Assembly (NCBI GenBank): GCA_051294905.1
Contig: CM119371.1
Location: forward strand, 31,002,001-31,066,000
Source: Botryllus schlosseri
Taxonomy: Eukaryota
Direction: 5' to 3'
DNA: 64,000 bases
Made by a program: the position numbers and the translations under genes. Below the pieces are notes generated by a model. That model made no database searches and was not told the DNA's origin. It worked only from the letters and a program-made list of their open reading frames with translations. How positions within the stretch are numbered: the stretch's first letter is position 1; the number at the start of each line of letters is the position of its first letter. Shown one piece after another: positions 30,291 through 49,408 of this stretch.

Positions 30291-31389
30291 TATTACCAAT
30301 TTGCTTTGAAAAGTATACGTCAAAGTGACGGTTAAATGACTATCATATAACCATTAAACATGTGCAAACATACGATTAACGATGACATGTGAAATTGTTT
30401 CGTTGTGGCACAGCTTGAATTATTTACTATGCATGCCTCACATTATATCAGTTTCCATAACATAACCTCTCTAATAACCTAATATGTATGCATCATTCGA
30501 ACACTGTACTGTGTATGATTAAAATGTAGATAAAACAATCGAAGTGTTGCTCTTCTGTATGAGTCAACAATGGTCATTCTCATTCGGGCTATTCAAAAAA
30601 ACCTTTTTTTCCTGAATCTTGCTGGCTACATAATTAAATCGTTAGGTTGCCTTAAAAAACGACGCAAGCCAAATTTCAATTCATTCCAACCAATATTTGC
30701 GCTCTGAAAGATAACTTTATGATTGCCAGAAATCCTACAGTTCCTTACGCAAAACAATGCCAGATTACAGCTTAGGTGAAGCGGAACGAAGTAGCAAATT
30801 CGGTCGTTGCCATTCCATGTTTACATTCTATAGTATCATCCTTTATGATGATTTCATTTTGTAGATTTCAAATACAAGTATATTTAGTCGTTTAATTCGT
30901 GCACAAAGCTTCAAAACTTATATAATGTAAAACGGGCTTTACTCTCAAAAGTGATATAAAATCCCTCCTTATTCGATTTTCACACGCTGTGCGCTGCGGG
31001 ATATAATACCTAATTCGAGCCATATTGTTGAAAATAAACCTAGCAAGCGCGACAGCAGTGTTTTAACGGGAAATTGGCGATCTGAAAGTACGCGCAATTC
31101 GTTTTATATCGTCGCGTAGCGCAACCAAACATTCCAGGATTCGTCATGCTTTATCGGATATTACGTTGCTCTGAATACTCATTAAACGTGATTGAAGATA
31201 TGTCCTACTACCACATCATCTAATGCGAAGCCATTTCTCTTCACCGCACCACATATTGCCTCCTGAGAGTTTTCGTCCCCTTCAACTTCGCCATCCCCCC
31301 TTGGGTGGGCACTGAAGGCAAGTTTAAGAACAACTCGTCTATACCTACCGAGCAACATATCGATCCAAGTGTTTTGTGCCTTAACTCAC

Positions 31390-31703
31390 CTGTATTCTTT
31401 TTTCCAGGCACCCCGTAATTATCGACAAAAGCTCGTCGTTGATGTTGCAGTTGGACAAATCCAGGCACTTCAGACTTTCACTCCTAGCTGTAAGCGATCC
31501 GACAATGTGAGCCTCATCACGACTCAATGAGATGCCAGATGCATCGATATCGGAAATTCTTCTCATAAGATCGTCGTCTTCTGATTCATAGATTGCTGTA
31601 TACAGTTCCATGCCAATGTATTTTTCTTCAAATCCAGTCACTTTCTCGAGTTGCAAATGAATCGATCGAGAAAGAAATCGTTGTCTAACCGACCGATATG
31701 AGA
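31390..31703 (-). CDS. NLR-like gene, helical-domain/first LRR exon
   Basis: Acceptor atttatttgcctgacAG, donor CAG|GTGAGT; phase 1 joins the NACHT exon in frame; contains ELYTAIYESED and the RI-like LRR SLKCLDLSNCNINDELLSII. Confidence 0.9.
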
Positions 31704-31972
31704 CTGTCAGGCAAATAAATGCACCTCATTACATGTTATTACGAGTGAATAAAGAGAAAGCGTAGTGTGCAGAGAGGTACAGCCATGTGGATAGATTAAC
31801 GGCATCATTGACTCGCATGTCTGTTTTTGGTTACTCAATGAATCCATGACGCCATGGCATTGCTGTAAAATATTTAGTTTTGCGGTATCGCTAAACTTTC
31901 CAATTGGGCGTAGCAGGTTTTTCGGCTAAGAGCGCAATTTAGTGTATGCCGACCAAGGATGTACTCAGGAAA

Positions 31973-32443: not shown

Positions 32444-32790
32444 AGTAGTATAGTAGATCAGTCGCTATTTGCCTGGGGTTCTTATGGGCCCTCTCGCACG
32501 GTGCCTCGAAACTCGTGTTGGCACGGTGACCCTTTTCAATCCCCTTCCGCCAGCACGTGCCATTGTGCCTTATGGAGTCTCTCACACGGTAGCCCTTTTC
32601 GGAAAGGGATATCTCGCACGGTGCCCCGAAACTCGTGTTGGCACGGTAACCCTTTTCGGTATAGGGATCTCCCGCACGGTGCCTCGAAACTCGTGTTGGC
32701 ACGGTAACCCTTTTCGGTATAGGGATCTCTCACATGGTGCCTCGAAAACTGTTGGTGAGCCGTACTTTCGGGTATATGCCTCCACTCGGA
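32444..32790 (+). mobile_element. Isolated Polinton/Maverick-like terminus related to the 33378-41672 element
   Basis: Starts AGTAGTATA, then cttatgggccc and ~56-bp tandem units ctcgcacggtgcctcgaaactcgtgttggcacggt(g/a)accctttt, which parallel the ctcgaccggtgccgcgaaaactcgtgttgaaccggtgaccctttt units of the inner TIR. Confidence 0.7.
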
Positions 32791-33377
32791 CAATATATCC
32801 GGGTAGATTCAGACTGTGTGCCGCCGCCAGACGGACTGGGGCATTTTTTTGCAACACAGATATCATATATGGGATGTCTTCTGTCACTCGGACATCATGT
32901 CTGGGGTATGTTCGGACTGTGTTGCCACCAGGACAAATATCTGGTGTAGATTCGGACTGTGATCTGTCACTCGGACATCATATCTGGGGTATATTCTGCC
33001 TATGTGGCAACCCAGACATCATGTCAGGTTATGTTTGGGCTATCTTGGCACTGGGACATGATGTCTGGGGTATGTTCGCTCCATCACTCCGCCATCATAT
33101 CTGGGGTCTGCTCGGACCATGTTGCCAATCAGACATCATACCATGTTTTCATTGTGTTCTGCTCTTCGGACATCATATCTGGGGTTGATTCGGACTGCCA
33201 TGTTGTCTGAATGGCAAGTGCAGTCCGAATCTATCTCAGAAATGATGCCCGGGTGGCACAGCACGGTCCTAACATACCAAACATGTGATGTCCTAGTGAT
33301 GTAACATTGTGCAAACATATACCAGAGACATGATTTCCTTGTAGCAGTATAGTCCAAACATACCCCAGGCAGGTATA

Positions 33378-35625
33378 AATAGTATATACGATCGCTGGCA
33401 CATCACCATTGGCTCTTATGGGCCCGCTCGACCAGTGCCGCGAAAACTCGTGTTGAACCGGTGACCCTTTTGACCCCCCTTGCGGTGGTGACTCGCCTTT
33501 TCAGAACCCCCTTCCGCTCGACCGGTGCCATGTGTTCTTATGCGTGCGGTCGTGAATCGCCCTTTCGGATATAGCCATCTCTCGACCGGTGACCCTTTTC
33601 GGTATATGCATCGCTCAACCGGTGCTAGTATAGCCATGTCTCGACCGGTAACCCTTTTCGGCATATGAATCGCTCAACCGGTTTCGCGGTGGTAATTCGT
33701 ACTTTCGGGTATATGCATCTCTCGACCGGTGTTGAATATGTATCAAGTAAATAGTCATGTGAATGAATCTTTGTTAATGTGTATATCGTGAAAACTCGTG
33801 GTCGTCACTCGCCTTTTTTGCTATAGGCGGTGGCGGTGATTCGCCTGTCGTGTATTCTTACGGGGTCTGTGGTGACTCGCCATGTGTTCTTATGGGTGCG
33901 GCCGTGATTCGCCCTTTCAGGTATAGCTCGTGGCGGTGATTCGCCGTGAAAACTCGTGGTCGTGACTAGCCTTTTTTGCTATTGGCGGTGGCGGTGATTC
34001 GCCTGTCATGTATTCTCACGGGATCTCTGGTGATGTGCCATTGTTTCTTATGGGCGCGGTCGTGATTCGTACTTTCGAGTATAGGCATCTCTCGCGCGGT
34101 GTTGAATATGTACGAGTCACCAACAATAACCGCACGAACGGAAACGTGGCTTGTTGTGCAAGAGGATTTACGCAGTGCGTGCGACCTATATTTCGAATGA
34201 CCTGCGCGCTGAATTGTTTCCCATGCAGCTGTGTGCTACTATCGATTATTACCCTAATCCATTCAGTGCGAAATAGTTTGCTAAATCTAGGAATCAGTCG
34301 CATGGTGTTACTTTAGTAATTAGTTTACCACAGAACCGGCGTAGACGGTGATTCGAATATCAGCGATAACCACGCTCACAAACTAACAGTTCGAAAAGGT
34401 GTGAAATAGTTTGCTAAATCTGTCACATGGTAATGTTTTGGTAATTAGTTTGTCCCAGAGCCGGCGTAGACGGCGATTCGAATACCAACAATAACCACGC
34501 TCACAAACTAACACTTCAAATAGGTGTGAAATATATAACAAACCCCACGATCACTCACAAGATAACACCTAAGACATAGCCATTTTTCGCGTCTTACCAT
34601 TACTTACATCCCAATCGCTACAGTTTAATATGTCGATGGTTTTTACTATCAAGTAATAAGTAATGAATAACCGAACCGGCGCAGACTGTGATTCGAAAAC
34701 CAACAATTTGTCACTTGCACGCGATAGCTATATGTTTTGACACTTCGCACCGTTTTCACATCTATAGAATCAATACCAACTATAATTCCACAAGAATCAA
34801 GAATCACAAGTATGTGCATTATACAGTTATTGTCTTTATTAAGTTGAAATCAAACTCTTAACAAAAACACCCATCTTATCACTCGTCAACTCTATCATGA
34901 AAATCCTCGAGTCCTTATCATCAAAAATGTTATACCGCGGCGTCGGAATCCATTCGTGGGATGTACTAAAGGTAAATCCAGATAATCCAAAATGAAATAT
35001 TTTGACTTTGACATAGTCTTAATCGAAATATATTGACAAACATGACTACCAACTTTAATCCAGTCACATTTCAAGATCATACTTTGAAACAATCCTTGAA
35101 ACTTACAACTCTATTCACGACTGAGTTTTCCGTTTACCAAATAAAGTTTCAGTAAATACTATCGCGATATTTTAATGTGTTACTACACACAATAGAATCA
35201 ATCAATGAAATAGCACCTGTTGTAAATATTTCCAACTTGACAACCACTTGCGCATACCGCGATCGACTTGTGACGCGATGAGTTAAATAGGAATATTTCA
35301 ATCTATTTGTCGAAACCTTGAACAAACTAGCAGGTTATTTTTTGTTGTTGTAATCGAGTGAACGGAAATAGTATTACGCCTCAACATTTTAACATCTTCC
35401 CATACACAAAAGAGTAAAATACAAAAAAGTCTTGTCAAGTCAATCCGTTTGTAACTTACCCAACCAAAGTAAAAAGTATCCTTATGAAAAGTAGACAAGA
35501 CTACGCGAGTAATCACCACAATCCAAAATCCATAGCAAGTTCGGTTGTACTCATAGTCCACCAAATCGTATTTTTGTTCAACTTCAAAAGTCGTTACTAT
35601 TCTGTAAGATAAAGTAATTACTACT
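33378..35625. repeat. Left terminal inverted repeat (2248 bp) with internal tandem sub-repeats
   Basis: GC-rich short repeats (ctcgaccggt, gtgattcgcc) at 33420-34110; two ~130-bp copies at 34270-34535; ORF-like AT-rich part at 34840-35625. Confidence 0.9.
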
Positions 35626-38344
35626 CGGTATATTTTATGAACCAAAGTAAATACTACTCGGTGTGTGGTTTGAGATTAACATATTACATTTGAGTATACG
35701 AGATTTGAATGTCTGACCAACGTAGTTGAGAATTCATTTCTTACAATCGAACGCAGGCGTTATATTGAAAATTTCCACGATGTAAACATATGAATTGACA
35801 CACTGAGTTTGACATATGAGATTCTGTAATAGTCGATCATGACTTGATTATTAAATTATGATATTATTAGACCGGGTTGTGTTGAAGGTTATTACGATAC
35901 CAACAAACTTTTCAGAAACATTGTTATTAACATATCGATTTGTGAAACTAGATTAACATGTCTGAAATGTTTTGATTGGGAAGATTAACCCGTGTTCGTA
36001 AAAACCACGCAGCGTATTGTGGACATCAGGAAATATTTTACAAATGTAATTGTCTCCAGTAACCAAGACTAAAGATGAAACAACAATTTCCTTTGTTGAA
36101 CAATAACCGGTACAATACTTTATCATCGTAATCTGCGGTGAGAATTGAAACACTTTCGCACATTACCCGGGTCAAGATATCACACTAGGTGAATTGACAT
36201 ACCGCCGCTTGATTAATACCTAATCCGTTCGCACCATTTCGCATACTTTGATCATTACAAAAGTAAATTGGAATATGTTTCCTAGATGCATTCAATTCAG
36301 TTAGAAATGTCTGGTGCACAACAATCGTAACATCATGGAAGTACTTGCTACACTGTTATTCACTTAACGTGTTTTGCATTGTTGTTCATTTGTAGTATTG
36401 ATTGAAATTGTTTTTGAACCCCCAAATAATAATTCCGACATGAAACCAAGCCGCTGAAAGTCGTTACCATCACAACGAAACAATTTGTACGATGTTCGCC
36501 AAATGTATCCTATAGTTAGGTGTACTAGAATTATTTGTCTAACGCATACACCGACAATGCAATCGAAAATTTTTCCGTTGTCATTCGCTAAAGTAAATGT
36601 CATCACAATACTCTGTCACTAAAAGACGTTACTTGGACGTGCTTGAATTCTAGACATAGTTCTGATTTACCCAACACAAGACCCAACGACAACCCTAGTT
36701 TACAATCGTGAACACATATCCAAAATATCGCACACTCCGCTATTCCTAAAGTACAAACACCCGATACAAAATATTACTTGTTGTGTTGTTGCGGCATCAT
36801 CTTCACAATATCACCCTCAATACAAACGATGTTTATGTGTAACATGCTATTGATTTGATTCACACTCACCTGACGGAAGAGGATTTACTCAATCTTTACA
36901 TAACAATTATTGACCAACATCACATCACCGGATTGTATCTGTTTTGCTGGATACGAGTTATGTTAGTTTAACAGTAAACAAATTTCACCCTCTTGGATTT
37001 TGAACTCAATGCGTTAGCAGTCATTCAATATTTTGTTGTGTCAACTAGTTACTAGGTATGTTACCCCACAACTCTTACAAAAGTACGAAGGATATTAACA
37101 TCGCACTAAGTAAATAACTTTACTCGATATTCTCGCATTACGAAACTAAAGAATGGTTGGTTAGACTCTACAAACTGTTTCGATATCTCACGACCTTCAT
37201 TGTCTGAATGGGTGTTCATGTATCTTAATAATCAAATTGTTCAACACAGAACTAGTACTAACAGAAACATCAGAGTTGTTTACACAAAAGTTTGTATGTG
37301 TACAGTATGTGAATACCATGTGTAAGTCCAAAACAATTGCGGTATCCATCCGAGTTTAGTTAACACAAATTTATTACAACGGAGCCACGTAAACTTTCGC
37401 GAAAGAAAAGCATACTCATTTCTGGATGGTTCTATCAATGCCATAGCAATAGATCAGCTACTCCAACAAAAGAGTGCATATGTATTCTAGTGGCGGTCCC
37501 TAAATCATACACACGAAACTATCTACTTTTGCTAACGAAAAGTGCTGAGTCATCACATAATCGCTCTCACAATAAAACAGCTAGTAGATATTATCATTCA
37601 AAATATTCGTAACCCTTTACACACCAGTGACAAATCATACAACGAATATGTTTTGTGGGTCGAATTGTTGTTCAGTGTCAAGTCTACCTGTTGAAACTTA
37701 CATTAAAACAACACAGTCACAATTCAATTAAAACCACGAATCTATTTTCATTTCGTCACAAACTGTCACATACAGAAAAATAAATTTTCTTTCCCCAACA
37801 CATACTTGTAACCAATCGCTTTCATTAAACACACAACTTCATAAAAGTATTTACTTTCTACAACATAGACTGTCCGATGTAGTCAAGAAATATTTTTATT
37901 AATCAAAATCATCGATTTCTGTTCACAGTGTTAGTGTGTGCATGTCATACCTGTGGGCCCCGTATTAAAATGGACACGACACGACTGAATGTAAGGGGGG
38001 TAGAAGTCTATCGCATCGATTTACATGTGGTCTTCGCTACGGTTTCAAAAAACGAATCATCTATTTTGCATTGGTCGAGACCGAGCGAATCAGCCACATG
38101 TATTCGCGGTAATGATTTTGCTTGTCATATGCGAATGATAGGGTTGCTACTCCGACAAATCAAATCAACATACAACAATCTTCTGACGATCATAATAGCA
38201 ATTTCATTCTTCACCCCTACGTAACTGTATACGCACGAAAAGTATATTGTACAACTCGGCAACCACGTTTAACAAGACCAATCACACTACGAGCGTTGAA
38301 CACAAGATACCTACCCAAGTCAAAATATCACTCTGGTTTGGTCA

Positions 38345-38745
38345 ACTGACGTTTACCTGTGTAAAATTATCATTTTCACTTGGAGGTCCACCGTTACCTA
38401 ACTAAAATACCATTGTCCTTTGGAGATTTATCGTTTAGTCAGTGTAACAAACCCCTTTTCACCTGGAAATCTATTTTTGCTCTGGATAACACACCTTTTT
38501 CACTTGGAAATATATTTTTTTTCTGGGTAACAAACCTTTTTCACTTGGAAATATATTTTTTTCCCTGAGCAACAAACCATTTTCACTGAGCAACAAACCA
38601 TTTTCACCTGGCGGGTCGTCGTTTACCTGAGTAAAAATATCATTTTCCTTTGGAGATCCGGCGTTTACCCGGTGTAACAATACATTTTCTCTTGGTCATC
38701 TAGCTTTTCCTAGAGTAACAAAACCATTTTCATTTTGAAATCTGA
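38345..38745. repeat. Degenerate ~42-bp (21-bp sub-unit) tandem array inside the element
   Basis: Recurring aacaaaccattttcac(t/c)tgga motif spaced about 41-43 bp apart. Confidence 0.75.
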
Positions 38746-39415
38746 CAAACACACCGGCCAATTTGGTATTTGCTGTATTGACGATAGTTTGAAATAGATT
38801 ACAACGAACAGTGACGGAAATATACACGACTACCGGTTTCAGAGTATACCTCCATCAGTCGTATCACATCAATATCATCAGTTAACCACATACAATATGC
38901 TCTTGTACCCAGAAATGCATGTTTTGGAAAATTGGACAATAGGCTTCGAGAGTTCTGTGATGTCCGGGTTCGTGCTTTGGATTTTCCAGAGTCAAAATGT
39001 CTGAATAAAACACCTCCTTGACGATGGTTGGTATGTGGATAACGGTGTTCGGAAAACGGTTGGATTCATCTCACACATCGCGATAACAATTCCAGATCGA
39101 GTTTTCCTCCCACATGTTTACTATATTGTGTCTTTATTGGTCAATGTATGTCTCGACATTCAGTTTGAAATCGGAAACTCTAATAAAGTATGCAAACGGA
39201 TCCGGATATCTACTCTGAATCGATAAACCAATGAACAATATTCAAAGTAAATATGTTACACCCTGTGTTTCCACGAAAAAATACCATCCAGACATACGTC
39301 GCGCTTGTTTGCCCACACCAGTATACGCGTAAATGGAGGTGTGTGACATTGCATGCAATGTGTTGGTATACAAACATCGATCCACAGACATTATCATAGC
39401 CGGTAGTTTTGATGC

Positions 39416-41672
39416 AGTAGTAATTACTTTATCTTACAGAATAGTAACGACTTTTGAAGTTGAACAAAAATACGATTTGGTGGACTATGAGTACAACCGA
39501 ACTTGCTATGGATTTTGGATTGTGGTGATTACTCGCGTAGTCTTGTCTACTTTTCATAAGGATACTTTTTGTTTTGGTTGGGTAAGTTACAAACGGATTG
39601 ACTTGACAAGGCTTTTTTGTATTTTACGCTTTTGTGTATGGGAAGATGTTAAAATGTTGAGGCGTAATACTATTTCCGTTTACTCGATTACAACAACAAA
39701 AAATAACCTGCTAGTTTGTTCAAGGTTTCGACAAATAGATTGAAATATTCCTATTGAACTCATCGCGTCACAAGTCGATCGCGGTATGCACAAGTGGTTG
39801 TCAAGTTAGAAATATTTACAACAGGTGCTATTCCATTGATTGATTCTATTGTGTGTAGTAACACATTAAAATATCGCGATAGTATTTACTGAAACTCTAT
39901 TTGGTAAACGGAAAACTCAGTCGTGAATAGAGTTATAAGTTTCAAGGATTGTTTCAAAGTATGATCTTGAAATGTGACTGGATCAAAGTTGGTAGTCATG
40001 TTTGTCAATATATTTCGATTCAGACTATGTCAAAGTCAAAATATTTCATTATGGATTATCTGGATTTACCTTTAGTACATCCCACGAATGGATTCCGACG
40101 CCGCGCTATAACATTTTTGATGATAAGGACTCGAGGATTTTCATGATAGAGTTGACGAGTGATAAGATGGGTGTTTTTGTTAAGAGTTTGATTTAAAGTT
40201 AATAAAGACAATAACATTATAATGCACATACTTGTGATTCTTGATTCTTGTGGAATAATAGTTGGTATTGATTCTATAGATGTGAAAACGGTGCGAAGTG
40301 TCAAAACATATAGCGATCGCGTGCAAGTGACAAATTGTTGGTTTTCGAATCACAATCTGCGCCGGTTCGGTTATTCATTACTTATTACTTGATAGTAAAA
40401 TCCATCGACATATTAAACTGTAGCGATTGGGATGTAAGTAATGGTAAGAAGCGAAAAATGGCTATGACTTAGGTGTTATCTTGTGAGTGATCGTGGGGTT
40501 TGTTTTATATTTCACACCTATTTGAAGTGTTAGTTTGTGAGCGTGGTTATTGTTGGTATTCGATTCGCCGTCTACGCCGGCTCTGGGACAAACTAATAAC
40601 CAAAACATTACCATGTGACAGATTTAGCAAACTATTTCACACCTTTTCGAACTGTTAGTTTGTGAGCGTGGTTATTGCTGACATTCGAATCACCGTCTAC
40701 GCTGGTTCTGTGGTAAACTAATTACTAAAGTAACACCATGCGACTGATTCCTAGATTTCGCAAACTATTTCGCACTGAATGGATTAGTGTAATATTCGAT
40801 AGTAGCACACAGCTGCATGGGAAACAATTCAGCGCGCAGGTCATTCGAAATATAGGTCGCACGCACTGCGTAAATCCTCTTGCACAACAAGCCACGTTTC
40901 CGTTTGTGCGGTTATTGTTGGTGACTCGTCCATATTCAACACCGCGCGAGAGATGCCTATACTCGAAAGTACGAATCACGACCGCACCCATAAGAAACAA
41001 TGGCACATCACCAGAGATCCCGTAAGAATACATGACAGGCGAATCACCGCCACCGCCTATAGCAAAAAAGGCAAGTCACGACCACGAGTTTTCACGGCGA
41101 ATCACCGCCACGAGCTATACCTGAAAGGGCGAATCACGGCCGCACCCATAAGAACACATGGCGAGTCACCACAGAACCCGTACGAATACACGACAGACGA
41201 ATCACCGCCACCGCCTATAGCAAAAAAGGCGAGTCACGACCACGAGTTTTCACGATATACACATTAACAAAGATTCATTCACATGACTATTTACTTGATA
41301 CATATTCAACACCGGTCGAGAGATGCATATACCCGAAAATACGAATTACCACCGCGACACCGGTTGAGCGATTCATATACCGAAAAGGGTTACCGGTCGA
41401 GAGATGGCTATACTAGCACCGGTTGAGCGACGCATATACAGGAAAGGGTCACCGGTCGAGAGATGGCTACATCCGAAAGGGCGATTCGCGACCGCACGCA
41501 TAAGAACACATGGCACCGGTCGAGCGGAAGGGGGTTCTGAAAAGGCGAGTCACCACCGCAAGGGAAGGGGGGGGGGTCAAAAGGGTCACCGGTTCAACAC
41601 GAGTTTTCGCGGCACCGGTCGAGCGGGCCCATAAGAGCCAATGGCGATGTGCCAGCGATCGTATATACTACT
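39416..41672. repeat. Right terminal inverted repeat (2257 bp)
   Basis: Reverse complement of 33378-35625; begins AGTAGT (39416) and ends ACTACT (41672). Confidence 0.9.
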
Positions 41673-43942
41673 GGCATACACGAGTGGCGGAACACAGTTA
41701 GAAATATGCCTACCCCAGACATGGTGTCTCAGTGCCAGAACAGTCCACACATAACCTGTGCTGGTGTCCGGCTCTCTATTACAGGCAGAATATACCCCAG
41801 TCATGATAGAGTGGCGGATCACAGTCCGAATCTACACCATATATGATGTCCGAATGGCGGACCACACAGCGAACACACCCAAGATATGATGTCCTAGTGG
41901 CAACAAAGCCCGAGCATATCCCAGACTGTCCGGTCGCTCGAATGCAATATCTGTTCACGAAGCGACGAGCAATCTCTATCTGCGTATGGGCACTCAACCG
42001 TTCATCACGCATTGCGCATCTATCCATCGGTTAGTCATCAATAAATCGACTCTCCGCGCTGGCACGTTATCTGGGCAAGATGATTTCACCTCGAGTCAAC
42101 AGAATGACTACTGAAAAATCATGTGGCACCATCATGAATATATTCAATTAGGAATTAAACCCTCAAATTCTCACTCTCTACTACCATAGTTGCGAAAAAT
42201 GGTCGCATCCTTTACATTCTGGGTTGATTTAAATTCAGAAGTTTCACCTGTCCGCCAAATATTTTTGGAAATTTTACCGGTCGTCGAGATGGAAAACGTT
42301 GAGAACCGCTGCTCTAGAGAGCCACCTTACTTCTGCATAAAGTAAAATATGTTGATGTTGCGCACCCGGGATATCACACAAAGCCGAAAAAGCCTTGAAT
42401 GTAACGCTCGGCTACGTATATAACACTGGTAAGTATACACGACTTTTGCGCCAGGACTTCTTTGGTTCTATAACACATATTTGAGGGGCGCTGAATACGA
42501 ATCTGACGTTATTTTTGCTCCATCACGTCACGTTTTTGAGATATATATGTGGAATATTTTTACTTTTTCGGGGAACTCAAGTATATTTTGACTACTTGCA
42601 GTACTTACTGAAGTGGTAATGTTTGACAAATACTTGAACATCTACCTGAACTGTAATCTGGATGAACTAATTACATTTGCAATCTGGTTTTTGTGAGGTA
42701 GAAAGTAGTTCAGGTATAATATTGCATCACTATCATGAGTTAAATTGTCAGAAGAAAAGTGTAAAATAGCCTCACGGTGCCTGAGTATATTATTTCGAAG
42801 ATTATATCCATGTGTGGTGTCATTATAGTCATTTTGCGTTATATGCGGTGATACATCATGTGATTTCGTATGTAGCCAACCCCGACTAACCGTTAAAAGT
42901 ATGCGACCACCCTCCCCCGATCAAATATGCTTAGATATTTACAGACTTTTAGTAATTCCCAGACCTTTCATTTCGTCTTCCACATGAAGTAGATTTGACA
43001 TGTCTTAGAAATGACTACTTCTACTTGTAATTGAGTAGTAATGTAAGGCGTTACATGTGCTACTTGAGTTGCAACGCTGATCAATTCGACCGACTATAGT
43101 TCATAGCAAACTATTACGACAAATCAGAAACCATCAAAAATGTAAATCTTTTTTATTTGGAACTAGCTTTTAATCATGCAACACACTAACAAAAAGCCTC
43201 GAAATTAAGCGATGTTATTCTCTGGCTCTGTTCCAGCATGGAACACGTGGTATTTGTTGTAGTCCACAGTATCTCCCATGTCGAGCGAGATCGACTGTCC
43301 TAGAACCGATGCATATTTATTTCTATTGTGAAGTAACATGTACTTCAGGTTTCGTGTTGAGCTGTTAGTAAGCAGTCTCCATTCGACCGATTGTCTATAG
43401 CAGACAATGTAAAGAATCCCGTCATATAATGGCACCTCACCAATAGAAAAACAGTTCAGAAATAGCTTTCCTCGATTCCGAAAATATGACAATATATTGG
43501 AACTGGAAAAGAAGAATTAGCATGGTAAGTACAGGTGGAGATTGATGATGATAAATTATTTCAATTTAACATGATAAGCATTTTTTTCTTTGAAAAAACA
43601 GACATCCTTTTTTTTCAATGTTTCAAAACAAGCTTAAAGGGCCTCATATTCGGATTATGCACCAGAGTGAACAATCATCTTCTACATAATATACCAACAA
43701 TAAAATGTTTATTTTTGCAAACTTTTACGTTTTACGAAAGAGCAGAGTCCTGTCACAAAATGCATTGACCGATTAAGTCTGCAGGACGGATGTAGAAAGA
43801 CAGATAACGTATGGAACAATCTTTAAACGAAGTGTGGTATAAAAATATGATAGCTTCTACCGACTAAAAATAGTTGCACCCGCATATAAATTTATGGATC
43901 AAAAAGAGGTCCTGATCGAAAAATAAAGGGAGCCACTGGTTT

Positions 43943-44559: not shown

Positions 44560-45560
44560 ATTCACACTGCGCCGTTCAGAACTTCGGTCAATTCAGGAGA
44601 CATTTTTTGGCACATAAATTTTCCCGGTGAAAAATGCAATGTGTAACGAGCGGATCTGTGTTTGCCAGTTTTTTAATTTTCCTAGTTACACCCGAATAGC
44701 ATTCCGTCATGTTAGGAGCACCGACACAACAAACACCGACGTATTTTCCCCAATGTAAACCTTGTTCTTGGACATAAGTATCGAGAGATCGAAATAATTC
44801 TGAACTGGTCGTTCGTCCAGGTAGTTGCAGGGAACAATGAAATTCGGCAATAATACTGCCTTCGTGATCATATCGAACAAAGCAAGCAAGTATCACACAA
44901 TTACTCAAATCCGTGGATTCGTCAAGTTGTACAGCGAAATATTGCGAATTCTTTACTTGCTCAATAACTTGTTGTTCGACATCAACTACCATATTAACTA
45001 TTCTTTTTTCAATTGGATCATTTGATAGTGGTATGGCTTTAAGTTTGTTAGCTAGTTCCAGACCCAAAATCTCTTTCACAGCTGCTTACAGGCAATGTTT
45101 TATCAAATCTTTTCCAATAGTAAAAGGCTTTTTCGCTTGGCTAACTAGGAGGGCAATTATACAAGATGATATGAGAAGATGTCATCTTTTGTAAATCAAT
45201 TCTTTCATTTTCAACTTTGTACAGTAGGCTTTTAAAATAAGAAGCAGGCTTTTCAACGAGGTCGGCATGCAGTGAGTGAAAATGTCGAGTGAGCTTTGAA
45301 GGCTTCATTGCGTCGTTTGGAAGTATTTTGTTACAAACCAAGCACATGGAAAGTGATGTTTCTTGGAGCAATAGAAAATCCGTGCTCCAAGTACTTACTA
45401 TCGCATTGCCTTGTGAAGTGGACTTTTCGCTTTTTGCTTGCTGGATAAGCCATATCGGCATTGCCTAACCGCTTCACGCTAGGTGGTAAATCTGAAGTGC
45501 ACCCTTTTTCTGTGCTGGTAGACCCTTTAACTTCAATTTCACTGCTGGACTTCACTCGAA
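44560..45560 (-). pseudogene. Frameshifted, 3'-truncated hAT Buster-family transposase (ZBED5/SCAND3-like)
   Basis: RQCDSKYLEHGF, BED finger CLVCNKILPNDAMKPSKLTRHFHSLH, AKKPFTIG, IPLSNDPIEKRI, catalytic FAVQLDESTD and CxxH motif VTHCIFHRENL, spread over several frames; C-terminal half absent. Confidence 0.92.
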
Positions 45561-46401
45561 AGAAATTCTCAATACATTTGCGTTGTCAATTTGCACTAAA
45601 TTGAACGGTCAAATTTCGTTTGATTTTGCATAAAGTCTTCTAAGCCTTCACATACAACTGGTCTTGGAAGTTCGACACTTACAGGTCAAACAGTTGTTCG
45701 TACACAACCATTCAAGTATGTACCAGCAGCAAGTGTTACGCCGGACGTAGGTAGGCCTACTGCGCATACCCAGACAAATTTTGGGTATGAGGTTACCCTG
45801 AATTCCGCTAGGCATGTAAACACCCCAACTAGCTGGTGACTGGAGTGAATTAGAAATAATATATTTATCTCGTTTCTATACTGCTGCTCAGGTGAGAAAT
45901 TAGCACCAATACATTGATCGATCGAACGGAAGTACTAATAAAAATGCGAAACGCTATGTGAAACGACCAAAACGGCAAGACCTCGATGCTAAAGATTTGT
46001 AGTGATTGCTATGTGCTGTGTAGTAGTATGACACCTGACGCGCCGGCCGGAACGATCGCTTCTATGGCAGTTGTGTTGTCATACTGACTCCCAAGACGGA
46101 ATTGATAAATGCCGCACCTCGCTGTTTGTAGTTGTATTTTCATCACTGCGTTACACAGGATATACTGCAAACGTATCGAAATCGATTCCCCGTCTTCGAG
46201 ACGGTTGCTACTGCTGTGACTCAGTTGAAAAGCATTTGCTATAAAAGTTAACGCAATGAAGTTATTGTTTCATCACCCTGCATTTTGCGATTAGGATATA
46301 AAATTGAAATATGTCTCGCGGACCGGCAAGAATGTGGCCGCGGACCGATGCCACCACTGTCCTACACTACGAATACCTCTATATTTTCTAATGAGGCTAA
46401 C

Positions 46402-47823
46402 CTTCATGGACGTTATCCGGCTTTTTGTCGTAAAGGAGGCCGCATACAAATCTCCGGACGACCGACCACCGCTCTTTGTGCATGTGGTTCGAGATGAAGC
46501 TCATGAACTTTGGAAGCGTCATTTCGACTACAAAGCCCGCTGCGAAGAATTCTTGCAGACTTTGATGACAGAAAAAGAAAATGAAACTTCCATCCAACAG
46601 ATTGCAACTGTGGAGGTTCTTTCCTGGAACTTTCATCATGAGATCTTGAACTTCTTCTTTTGAAAGTCCAAACTTCTTCAAATCATTTTCAGAGAATGTC
46701 ACTCTCCCTTCTTTCATGCCACGATATGCCATCGCCTTCAATTTATTGATAACTCCGGCGATAGCATCAGGCTTTCTAATGTTTTTCACGCTGCTTAGAG
46801 TGGATATGATTTTTTTGTAGAGTCCTGTGACCGTCGCGGGAGGAGGTTCGTCCGGATTATTGGCCATTATCACAGCGGTCAATACCAGAAAAACGGGAAT
46901 GGAAACTAAATTGATTAGCCTTGGTGACAGTTGTTCTATTTTCTTCCATGCTTCATCCCCATGCTGACGTAACAGAAACACAAAAAGCTTCTTTGCGTCA
47001 TCTAGGGTCAGACCAGAAAGTGTGATGATGTCGGCCGGTCGCGCTTCCGCGGGTAAATCCGAGACAAAGAATTCTCGGGAAGAGATGACGATCTTTGAAT
47101 CACCGAGTAGATTACGTGAGAGTATATTGTACATGATCGTTGCTGCCACGGCTCGAGTATAGGGATTTATTCTCTTGTCGCCATCTCTGTTTATTTTCCA
47201 CGTAGCCTGATCCAAGCCGTCGAAAAATAAAACTGCTTCTGATTGATGTTCGAGCAACCACTTATAAGCATGATCCTCGTCGTTCTCATTCTGAAAGAGG
47301 CCACCGAAAAGAAATTTAGATGGTCGGATTAATCCATCATCTCGCATGTCCTTTATTTCTATATAACATATTAATTTGTACTTCAGCGGTGAGCGGCTGG
47401 CAATGTCCTCGAGAGTTTTTTTCGCGATTCTGCGCATGAGAGTGGTTTTCCCAGATCCCGCAGACGCAACTATGGCGGTGATAGAACGTTCTTCGATGAT
47501 AGCTTTCTGAAAGACTCCATCTAGCTCGATGAATTTGTTGTCGTCAACTTTTTGTCGGAGGAATCCGAACTCCTTTCTGAATTGATTTTTCACAACCCCT
47601 TCCTTTCGCCAAAGGAAGAACTTTCTTTTTCTTGCTACTTCCATTTCGTGAACCTCTTCATAATTTCCTTTGAAATATTCTGACTTGGTGACCCTTCTCA
47701 TCTGTGGATGCACTTGGAAATCAGGTCTGTTGAGGTCATCGACGCCGATGTCATCGAGAATTCTGTCTGCCGTCTTCCGGGACGTATTGTCGTTTATGCA
47801 TTTGATCAGGGCTAATGGATCTG
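46402..47823 (-). CDS. NLR-like gene, large NACHT NTPase exon
   Basis: Walker A ASAGSGKTT, Walker B VLFFDGLDQ, sensor-1 IVISSR, IPVFL, winged-helix FFFCHQSLQEFFAA. The frame is open upstream of the listed ORF to a NAGNAG acceptor (ttcCAG|CAG, exon start 47823 or 47820); donor GAAG|GTTAG at 46401. Confidence 0.95.
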
Positions 47824-49408
47824 CTGGAAGATAACAATATTCTTTCTTATTTTTTCTTGATATTTTAATAATAGAAATGATCGTGAAAAAGCTATTACTG
47901 CTTTATGTGAATATTTTATATGACCCACACATTAAACATGAATATTGATTATGGTTGAACAAAATTTGGAAATTTTAAAAATAGCATACTCCATGATTGT
48001 GTCTTATTCTGTGGATTATTGATAAAATAAATAACGCATTGAGCCTGAAAGAAGCTCACAGGAAAGATGTTAAGATTTCGGGCAAAGCGTTTGAAAGTAA
48101 CTGCCCAAGAATGGGCGTGCCGCCGACCATACAACGGTGTGAAGACTAGTAATCACATAACCCCAGCTCTTGATTGGCTAATCGGCCATGCTCCAATGAT
48201 CACGACAGAAGCAGCTTGTTGATTGGGTGTTCAATGAGTCTGCTACCAGTGGGGATTCTGAAAACGCATTGTTGGTAGGTTGGCAGATGATGATTTATTA
48301 TTACTTCTGGACAATCGAGCATCAAAAAAGTTACATATATACTACGGCGTGAGCCAAATAAGGTCACACAAAGTATAGTGTTGTTGTTAAGCTTTATATT
48401 TGTATTCACTGATGATGGATCCCTTCTGAAACGGGGAATTTGTTCACCACTTGCATAAGCGCATTTGCTTTCACTCGATGAAAACATGGCATGCAGTCTA
48501 CACACGTTTCCTTTGCAATGTAGCAGTCATGCTGTTCAAGTTTTTGTGAGGCAGCTGTTGTTTGTTCATTATGTATTTCGTACCTCAATATGTCCTCACG
48601 AGTAAATTTCGAGTCATCAAGCAATCGATGTCGATAAAAATATTGTTTCTTGCATATTTTAGGATTGTACGCGAATCACTGGTTGAACCCGTGAGAGCGA
48701 CCAATCATTCAATGATAGCGCCTTTTACTGAGCCTCCGTTTTTCTCACACAAATATATTGATCGTAAACAAAGTTACCGAAGCTTACAGCTCATGCTGTC
48801 GTAGATTGTAGTATAGTAAAGTGATTTAATAGTAAAATATATATTTCTATACTCTTAACTTGACCAAACCTCTTGATTTATTGAAATTGAATTCCAATAT
48901 AGTTTATATAATCCTCAACCACGAGCATAGGGTGGAATTGCATCATATCAATTTGTAGCTGGGTAATGTAGGCTATAGCAGTGCTTTTCAACCTTTTTCG
49001 TCGTGGTACACCCTGTTAACATTTTCTCAAAACTCGTACACCCCTGACCGTATAATACACCGATAACGCCGAAAGCCGCATTTTGATCACATATACAATA
49101 CGTCCAGATTCCAGCGGGGAGTCGCCATGGCGCATGGACGACAAATGCTAATATGAAATTTGATACTGGGAACTTAACACCGCGGAGAGCCCTTGTGTAG
49201 CTCTGTGCCTTCACTTATTTCTTGAGATATGCAATGCGCAAATTTTCTTATTGTAGAAGCAAAACATCCCAGCAGGCTTACAAGTCGGATGTTGGACGGC
49301 ACGCTCTCTCATAATTGCCAATATAGCCAAAGTAGATTGGGCGTATTTTTATATTCAGGAAGGGCTAGAAAAAAACAAGAAATTGAGTGACAATAAAATG
49401 AATTAATC

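What the first reader, a model, noticed from the sequence alone, without database searches (positions are those of the whole stretch)
35611..39430. The inner ends of both arms are also AGTAGT: copy-back defective genome or composite of two mini-elements
Seen: arm homology stops exactly at ACTACT (35620-35625) on the left and AGTAGT (39416-39421) on the right, so each arm is bounded on both sides by the terminal hexamer. The left junction motif aaagtaa(t/a)tactactcggt is locally repeated at 35611-35629 and 35644-35662. GGTATA, identical to the left outer flank, occurs at 35627-35632. The arms also extend ~0.8 kb into ORF-like DNA. Inference, model A: a copy-back (defective-interfering) molecule formed by template switching at an internal origin-like AGTAGT during protein-primed replication. 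Model B: each arm is a mobile 2.25-kb unit and two inverted copies moved the core as a composite transposon.
Basis: partly seen in the sequence, partly recalled or inferred. Interest (0 to 1): 0.75.

Follow-up and report, generated by a model that had tools for sequence, protein, structure and literature searches.

The report
Internally rejoined Maverick-type satellite copy
This 8.3-kb gene-less copy of an abundant virus-like jumping element was shortened by one cut-and-rejoin event that landed on a sequence resembling the element's own end, which may be a rare trace of its enzymes mistaking an internal site for an end, or may be chance.

Summary
The 2.25-kb arms (33378-35625, 39416-41672, 97% alike) stop at ACTACT/AGTAGT, and that site matches the true end at 10 of 12 bases. 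But the two inner junctions are not equivalent. Public runs show arm and core are one high-copy family sequence. The left junction is native: it lies inside a 33-bp two-unit repeat, which also explains the GGTATA. The right junction is derived and rare: relatives continue past 39414 into other DNA. Only the whole 8.3 kb has a target duplication and continuous host flanks. So model B (two mini-elements carrying a core) fails. The element is a longer family member with a one-off strand rejoin, probably an asymmetric internal deletion. The scan has already noted several hundred 11-17 kb palindromic Maverick satellites elsewhere in this genome; they are the likely parents, but I could not link this copy to them by sequence. 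A random break hits this motif with P of about 0.001 (0.0003-0.004), yet the genome holds many rearranged copies. End-directed rejoining (integrase or protein-primed polymerase) and coincidence are about even. One junction; moderate interest.

The parts
33372..33377 (+). Left copy of the 6-bp target duplication (GGTATA)
   Evidence: partner GGCATA at 41673-41678, 5 of 6 identical
33378..35625 (+). Left arm; native left 2.25 kb of a longer family sequence; outer end AATAGT (one mismatch to AGTAGT); GC-rich subterminal repeats to about 34120
35598..35663 (+). Two-unit 33-bp direct repeat spanning the left arm/core boundary; each unit holds ACTACT; relatives carry a variant unit without the hexamer
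   Evidence: 25 of 33 identical; table 7 (loose end behind 35634, 15 contigs in X1)
35614..35625 (-). End-like site used at the junction: 10 of 12 match to the true terminus, first 7 exact
35647..35658 (-). Second end-like site, 11 of 12 match, not used
35626..39415 (.). Core: single copy in this element but high-copy family DNA continuous with the left arm; no recognisable gene; internal 21/41-bp repeats at 38300-38760
   Evidence: tables 2 and 8
39415..39417 (+). Derived junction: one base matching neither parent context, then a 2-nt (AG) overlap between the relatives' continuation and the arm
   Evidence: table 7 (loose end behind 39414: 43 contigs in X1, 6 in X5)
39416..41672 (-). Right arm, inverted copy of 33378-35625, ending in a perfect ACTACT terminus (41667-41672)
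41673..41678 (+). Right copy of the target duplication (GGCATA)
33215..33371 (.). Left host flank: roughly 40-bp-unit repeat into which the element inserted
41679..41940 (.). Right host flank: same repeat, same orientation, in register with the left flank

Best explanation
The unit is one 8.3-kb non-autonomous Maverick/Polinton-ended insertion. It comes from a longer member of a high-copy, gene-poor family by a single strand rejoin. A strand that had read the first 2.25 kb from an element end, up to ...ACTACT-3', was joined to the opposite strand 6.04 kb from an end. That gives end-arm-core-inverted arm-end, with both termini intact. Shown: structure, target duplication, native left junction, derived and rare right junction, 2-nt overlap. 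Inferred: the parent is one of the genome's 11-17 kb palindromic satellites, so the event is an asymmetric internal deletion of several kb, though an intermolecular join or copy-back gives the same product. Inferred, about even odds: the internal ACTACT drew the event because a helper Polinton's end-recognising enzymes took it for an end. Either the integrase nicked after ACTACT and transferred the 3' end into the core, or the protein-primed polymerase realigned a 2-3 nt end on the trinucleotide repeat. One continuous strand suffices if the element copies by strand displacement. Confidence in the structural part alone is about 0.85; the number given is for the whole statement.
For: Relatives leave the window's sequence at 39414 (43 contigs in X1, agreement 0.91; 6 in X5, 0.99). 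Few records run over either end of the laid stretch 33300-39440: 5 of 137,081 in X1, at least one of them at the left end; 3 of 9,250 in X5; 1 of 7,976 in X6; 0 of 263 in X23. A diverged X5 contig bridges 35625 colinearly (35571-35754, table 8). Arm/core median depth is 1.05 (X1) and 1.11 (X5). The empty-site test gains 14-16 score points for the whole element (shuffled controls reach it in 0-1 of 300) and 0 for the left arm alone. The break lies within 2 nt of the 3' end of one of 2 ACTACT sites in 6026 nt, in the polarity of a true end (P 0.0003-0.004), and shares the AGTAGTA start of both terminus types in the window. Use of cryptic ends is named as a route of aberrant cut-and-paste transposition (PMC3952818, passages). 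Adenovirus polymerase realigns a trinucleotide on a 3-nt repeat (PMC5175343, passages).
Against: One junction only. With 100 junctions inspected, chance gives at least one such hit with P 0.10-0.33. The better site 33 bp away was not used, and the inner end lacks the subterminal block conserved between the two terminus types. A 10-of-12 site exists somewhere in 6 kb in 9.7% of 300 simulations. A variant repeat unit in relatives lacks the hexamer. No loose end at 35625 is listed, so repeated use is not seen (only 24 of 3102 loose ends shown). Integrase transfer does not need the AG overlap, and base 39415 fits neither parent. X6 gives arm/core 1.64 (2.34 for the first kb of core), near a 2:1 step, and the tool warns that contig depth is no copy number. 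The loose end at 39414 is not among those listed for X6 or X23. No sequence link to the palindromic families was obtained.
Confidence: 0.48

Rival explanations
1. Same internal deletion, but the hexamer is a coincidence. A long palindromic copy broke near its centre in the chromosome or slipped during replication and was rejoined asymmetrically through a 2-nt microhomology by host end-joining.
For: 2-nt overlap plus one unassigned base is typical of end-joining (own knowledge). The left breakpoint at 6.04 kb is close to the arm lengths (about 6.2-6.6 kb) in the scan's notes on 13-14 kb palindromes (unchecked). Symmetry-breaking deletions are the main fate of long palindromes in animal cells (PMC8701086, passages). 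The junction is rare. Look-elsewhere P 0.10-0.33 per 100 junctions.
Against: Per-junction P is only 0.0003-0.004 and the polarity is that of a true end. The same review says spacers stabilise palindromes and that most such deletions are small.
Confidence: 0.38
2. Model B of the first reader: each 2.25-kb arm is a mobile mini-element, and two inverted copies moved the core as a composite transposon.
For: Each arm has end-like 12-mers at both ends. GGTATA recurs near the left inner end. The solo-right-arm empty-site test gained 9 points against one of two references (shuffled left side reached it in 2 of 300; 32 of 300 against the other reference).
Against: The core is high-copy and colinear with the left arm in relatives. 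Flanks of the solo arms are GGTATA/CGGTAT and TGATGC/GGCATA, so neither has a duplication. The left-arm empty site gains 0. The right-arm gain rests on a few bases; 150 nt of core show no likeness to the host repeat (26 of 300 shuffles, against 0 of 300 for the true flank). GGTATA is a repeat-unit boundary.
Confidence: 0.05
3. 2.25 kb is simply the regular TIR of a subfamily, and the inner hexamer marks its normal boundary.
For: Polintons with TIRs of about 2 kb are reported in butterflies (10.1101/2025.02.07.637071, passages). X6 depth is near 2:1. Identical copies collapse into one contig.
Against: Relatives continue past 39414 into other DNA, and at most 4 X1 contigs can cross the right junction, against an estimated 1300-2700 contigs over a typical base (assuming a mean contig length of 60-120 nt). 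No step in X1 or X5.
Confidence: 0.04
4. The junction is a chimera of two separate insertions (ectopic recombination or misassembly).
For: The target duplication has one mismatch. No listed contig spans the junction (table 8 shows 24 pieces only).
Against: Host repeat units are in register across the whole element. The arms differ by 2.5%, so they are not one collapsed read.
Confidence: 0.05

Closest known systems
Maverick/Polinton elements and their gene-less derivatives (PMC8097293, section 7 and passages read; 10.1101/2023.08.22.554363, passages)
   Same: (AGT)2//(ACT)2 end motif, 6-bp target duplication, long terminal inverted repeats.
   Different: No pPolB, integrase, ATPase, protease or capsid gene detected; 8.3 kb against 12.7-24.6 kb; arms of 2.25 kb against 46-1447 bp in vertebrates (about 2 kb reported in butterflies); an end-like site at the inner arm boundary.
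Giant palindromic Maverick satellites of this genome (scan notes; unchecked)
   Same: Maverick ends, gene-poor, high copy, mirror arms.
   Different: Arms cover 54% of the element rather than about 93%; best read as a deletion derivative. No sequence link was obtained here.
Galileo/Foldback-type non-autonomous copies with recruited TIR sequence (PMC3573991, passages)
   Same: TIR length varies by copy, internal sequence is recruited into TIRs, and the longest TIRs are in non-autonomous copies.
   Different: P-element superfamily, cut-and-paste; no end-like motif at the inner boundary in the passages read.
Copy-back defective genomes (RNA viruses; adenovirus left-end defective DNA). Recalled; only the title of Daniell 1976 and a passage on left-end bias (PMC12090768) were seen
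   Same: Complementary termini with a unique middle, formed by one strand switch.
   Different: No helper genome with two different ends is shown, no evidence of replication or interference, and a deletion in a palindrome gives the same product.
Cryptic-end, single-ended and autointegration products of DDE transposases (PMC3952818, passages)
   Same: An end or end-like 3' terminus is joined into the element's own DNA, giving deletions or inversions.
   Different: Shown for Sleeping Beauty and piggyBac; I found no such report for a Polinton integrase in my searches (20 of 55 papers listed).

Membership tests
Autonomous Maverick/Polinton | 5'-(AGT)2//(ACT)2-3' end motif | tested here: met
   Right end perfect, left end AATAGT with one mismatch; motif from PMC8097293 section 7
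Autonomous Maverick/Polinton | 6-bp target site duplication | tested here: met
   GGTATA/GGCATA, 5 of 6, with host repeat in register
Autonomous Maverick/Polinton | pPolB and integrase genes (plus ATPase, protease, capsids) | tested here: not met
   No significant Pfam hit in six frames of 34100-39500 read through stops or in 18 shorter frames; PHROGs blank apart from one E 0.039 hit in 13 frames; none of the 7 window ORFs of 140 aa or more is a Polinton gene
Autonomous Maverick/Polinton | Length 13-25 kb, TIR up to about 1.5 kb | tested here: not met
   8295 bp, arms 2.25 kb (ranges)
Non-autonomous Maverick-type derivative | Belongs to a multi-copy family with Maverick ends and no core genes | tested here: met
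   137,081 contigs laid in X1; all 30 bins covered in X1, X5 and X6
Non-autonomous Maverick-type derivative | Ends shared with an autonomous helper in the same genome | not testable with these tools
   No assembly held for this window; claimed only in scan notes
Non-autonomous Maverick-type derivative | This exact 8.3-kb structure has itself transposed (several loci) | tested here: inconclusive
   At most 4 X1 contigs cross the right junction, but identical copies collapse and X1 counts were truncated
Composite transposon | Middle segment is passenger DNA unrelated to the arms' family | tested here: not met
   Core as deep as arm in X1 and X5; relatives colinear across 35625
Composite transposon | Arms exist as solo elements with their own target duplications | tested here: inconclusive
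   Not at this locus; no loose end at 35625 among 24 of 3102 shown; a genome-wide search was not possible
Composite transposon | Each arm has a full terminal repeat at both ends | tested here: not met
   Inner end matches 10 of 12 only; no subterminal block
Copy-back defective genome | One native junction and one new junction joining to the inverted end | tested here: met
   tables 7 and 8
Copy-back defective genome | Parent has a different right end (the arm was made by the switch) | not testable with these tools
   Only about 30 nt of the relatives' continuation were visible; a palindromic parent fits equally
Copy-back defective genome | Replicates with, and interferes with, a helper | not testable with these tools
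   Sequence only
Giant palindromic satellites of this genome (scan notes) | Sequence identity with a described 11-17 kb palindrome | tested here: inconclusive
   Look-ups by sequence returned 0 windows

The most novel reading that the evidence does not exclude
Polinton integrase or protein-primed polymerase accepts short internal (ACT)2 sites as ends and so generates new long-armed, still mobile satellites. The junction would then be a direct footprint of Polinton end-recognition chemistry, which is so far known mostly by inference, and one route by which the genome's palindromic satellites change arm length.
Probability: 0.35. Interest if true: 0.65.

Novelty: new member of a known kind. Interest (0 to 1): 0.35.

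Why it matters
Polinton replication and integration are inferred largely from gene content. If breakpoints in this genome's many derivatives cluster at internal end-like sites, the minimal end signal and the enzyme involved become testable from sequence alone. If they do not, this is an ordinary deletion derivative. Either way the locus shows that these long-armed elements lose their centres asymmetrically and that arm length is a poor family marker.

Tried and rejected
No whole genome is held, so solo arms, full-length parents and helpers could not be searched directly. Exact-pattern scans found nothing in viral contigs (0 each) or metagenomes (0). The 26 loci are chance: 0 of 26 resemble the element. 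Protein searches of arm and core frames were blank: homologues, 1.84-billion library, PDB sequences, Atlas best score 0.79, Pfam and PHROGs only weak hits below cut-off. My idea that the 33-bp repeat is an 11-codon coding repeat with AGTAGT in Arg-Val-Val codons is unproven, since the open frame is within chance. BIR/IAP-like words seen by eye at 38850-39415 were not confirmed by any search. No Rfam family. No special fold at the outer end, either junction or the inner end (z -0.6 to +1.4). GGTATA as a solo-arm duplication was rejected. No RNA holder was listed; the 263 RNA reads laid are mostly under 95% alike, so they come from relatives and say nothing on this copy. Scan look-ups for a similar inner-junction finding returned nothing. 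PMC5033970 gave only reference-list hits. PMC3014272 reports no non-autonomous Polintons in anole (passages). No supplements were read; the TIR and end-motif figures in the supplement of PMC8097293 could bear on the length comparison.
Full report
Observation. The element runs from 33378 to 41672 (8295 bp). Its arms align at 97.2%, with 56 substitutions and 9 gap columns spread evenly. Identity ends sharply after ACTACT at 35625 and before AGTAGT at 39416. The right outer end is a perfect ACTACT; the left reads AATAGT. The flanks are GGTATA and GGCATA. These ends and a 6-bp duplication are the Maverick/Polinton signature (PMC8097293, section 7 read). The inner site matches the true 12-nt end at 10 positions and a second site 33 bp further in at 11. 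In the window, the only sites with the first 6 bases exact and at least 10 of 12 matches are the right terminus and these inner sites (4 in all). GGTATA at 35627 is the boundary between the units. The 'ORF-like' arm is not supported: a 125-codon open run arose in 40 of 300 simulations and has no homologue.

Chance. The hexamer occurs at 2.7e-4 per strand position outside the element. There are 2 ACTACT sites in the 6026 nt left of the junction, so a random break falls at one with P 0.0003-0.001, or up to 0.004 on a liberal count. The existence of an end-like site is less striking: 9.7% of 300 simulated 6-kb stretches have one at 10 of 12. Over 100 junctions the coincidence is expected with P 0.10-0.33. 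The number 100 is my assumption, based on the 50-64 scan notes that fit my look-ups in this genome.

What inserted. The element sits in a host repeat of roughly 40-bp units. With the whole element and one 6-mer removed, the two flanks align across the join to other units: gain 14 and 16 points against two references, with shuffled controls reaching it in 0-1 of 300. Removing only the left arm gains 0. Removing only the right arm gains 9 and 2 points (shuffled left side: 2 and 32 of 300). This weak result against my reading rests on a few bases, since 150 nt of core show no likeness to the repeat (26 of 300 shuffles; true flank 0 of 300), and the right arm has no duplication. The 8.3 kb is therefore one insertion.

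Relatives. I laid 4 of the 24 listed runs on 33300-39440 at 85% likeness. X1 may be the sample behind the assembly, so X5 is the independent check. Arm and core are both highly repetitive: 137,081 contigs in X1, all bins covered in X1, X5 and X6. Median arm/core depth is 1.05, 1.11 and 1.64; X6 reaches 2.34 for the first kb of core, and the tool warns that such depth is no copy number. A diverged X5 contig bridges 35625 colinearly (35571-35754). Fifteen X1 contigs leave at 35634 into a variant 33-bp unit that lacks the hexamer. In contrast, 43 X1 and 6 X5 contigs leave at 39414 into other DNA. Their continuation shares the dinucleotide AG with the arm at 39416-39417, and base 39415 fits neither parent. 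Only 5 X1, 3 X5, 1 X6 and 0 X23 records run over either end of the stretch, at least one X1 record at the left end. So the left junction is native and the right is derived and rare. Limits: only 24 of 3102 loose ends were shown, X1 counts were truncated, and identical copies collapse.

Genes. No Polinton gene or other family was detected in arm or core, nor among the 7 window ORFs of 140 aa or more.

Mechanism. The product is end-arm-core-inverted arm-end. It needs one strand in which the first 2.25 kb, ending ACTACT-3', is joined to the opposite strand at 6.04 kb. Three routes give it: deletion within a palindromic parent, a join between two molecules, or copy-back. Scan notes describe several hundred 11-17 kb palindromic Maverick satellites in this genome, some with arms of 6.2-6.6 kb. 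These notes are unchecked, and my look-ups by sequence found no link. They changed my reading, because a deletion from near the centre of such an element to 2.25 kb from its right end needs no new copy-back. Why the break sits at ACTACT is open. An integrase joins the 3' end of the terminus to its target (own knowledge), and cryptic sites are a named route of aberrant transposition (PMC3952818, passages). A protein-primed polymerase can realign three nucleotides on a trinucleotide repeat, shown for adenovirus at true ends (PMC5175343, passages); a DNA-primed switch would not need an origin (inference). Against both: the better site went unused, the subterminal block conserved between the two terminus types in the window is absent at the inner end, and repeated use is not seen. 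Host repair of long palindromes by symmetry-breaking deletion is documented (PMC8701086, passages), though mostly for small deletions without spacers. I put end-directed rejoining at 0.48, coincidence at 0.38, and model B, a regular 2.25-kb TIR and a chimera at about 0.05 each.

Comparison. The element works like a non-autonomous Maverick derivative and fails membership as an autonomous Polinton and as a composite transposon. TIRs of about 2 kb occur in butterfly Polintons (10.1101/2025.02.07.637071, passages), against 46-1447 bp in vertebrates and 100-1500 bp in a general statement (10.1101/2023.08.22.554363, passages). Recruitment of internal DNA into long TIRs of non-autonomous copies is known in Galileo (PMC3573991, passages). 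Adenovirus left-end defective DNA is recalled; I saw only titles and a passage on left-end bias (PMC12090768). I found no paper describing a Polinton derivative broken at an internal end motif. The searches were 20 of 43 listed, none with 'AGTAGT'; 12 of 13; 20 of 55; 15 of 283, none with 'copy-back' or 'snap-back'; 10 of 47. They were seen as listings, apart from the papers named above, and cover open-access text only.

Verdict. A real and precise observation on an ordinary kind of object: one rearranged copy of an abundant Maverick-type satellite family that the scan has noted many times. The coincidence with an end-like site is suggestive and cheap to test genome-wide, but rests on one junction. 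Interest 0.35.

Noticed in passing
window 32444-32782: One-ended remnant of a related Maverick-type terminus (starts AGTAGTAT, 76-81% like the arm, 58-bp tandem units), about 600 bp left of the element; no partner end with a matching 6-bp flank in the window.
   Followed up: partly
window 32780-33371 and 41679-41940: Host repeat of roughly 40-bp units that flips orientation near 33210; the element inserted about 170 bp from the flip, next to the remnant above.
   Followed up: partly
window 38850-39415, minus strand: BIR/IAP-like words by eye across several frames (motif recalled), in the deepest-covered part of the core, with the junction at their upstream edge. A scan note reports IAP genes in one palindromic family. 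Pfam, PDB, homologue and Atlas searches were blank.
   Followed up: partly
window 37195-37399: Local peak of RNA reads in X23 (mean depth 10.9, one direction) and of contig depth; reads overall are mostly under 95% alike, so relatives may express a small transcript here.
   Followed up: no
window 33300-33709: Contig depth over the outer 400 bp is far lower than inside (7,000-37,000 against 81,000-480,000 in X1), and a variant like the 32444 remnant appears at 33456-33458, suggesting that the interior is shared by subfamilies with different termini.
   Followed up: no
window 38300-38760: Cluster of 21/41-bp degenerate direct repeats inside the core.
   Followed up: no
window 46397-47902 (minus), 31381-31725 (minus): A 501-aa ORF with NACHT (E 8e-16) and NOD2 winged-helix domains, and a weak LRR fragment 15 kb downstream on the same strand: the element may lie within an NLR-type host gene or cluster.
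   Followed up: partly
window 44588-45085 (minus): DUF4371 fragment (E 7e-6, below cut-off), probably a decayed hAT-type transposase (the family link is recalled).
   Followed up: partly
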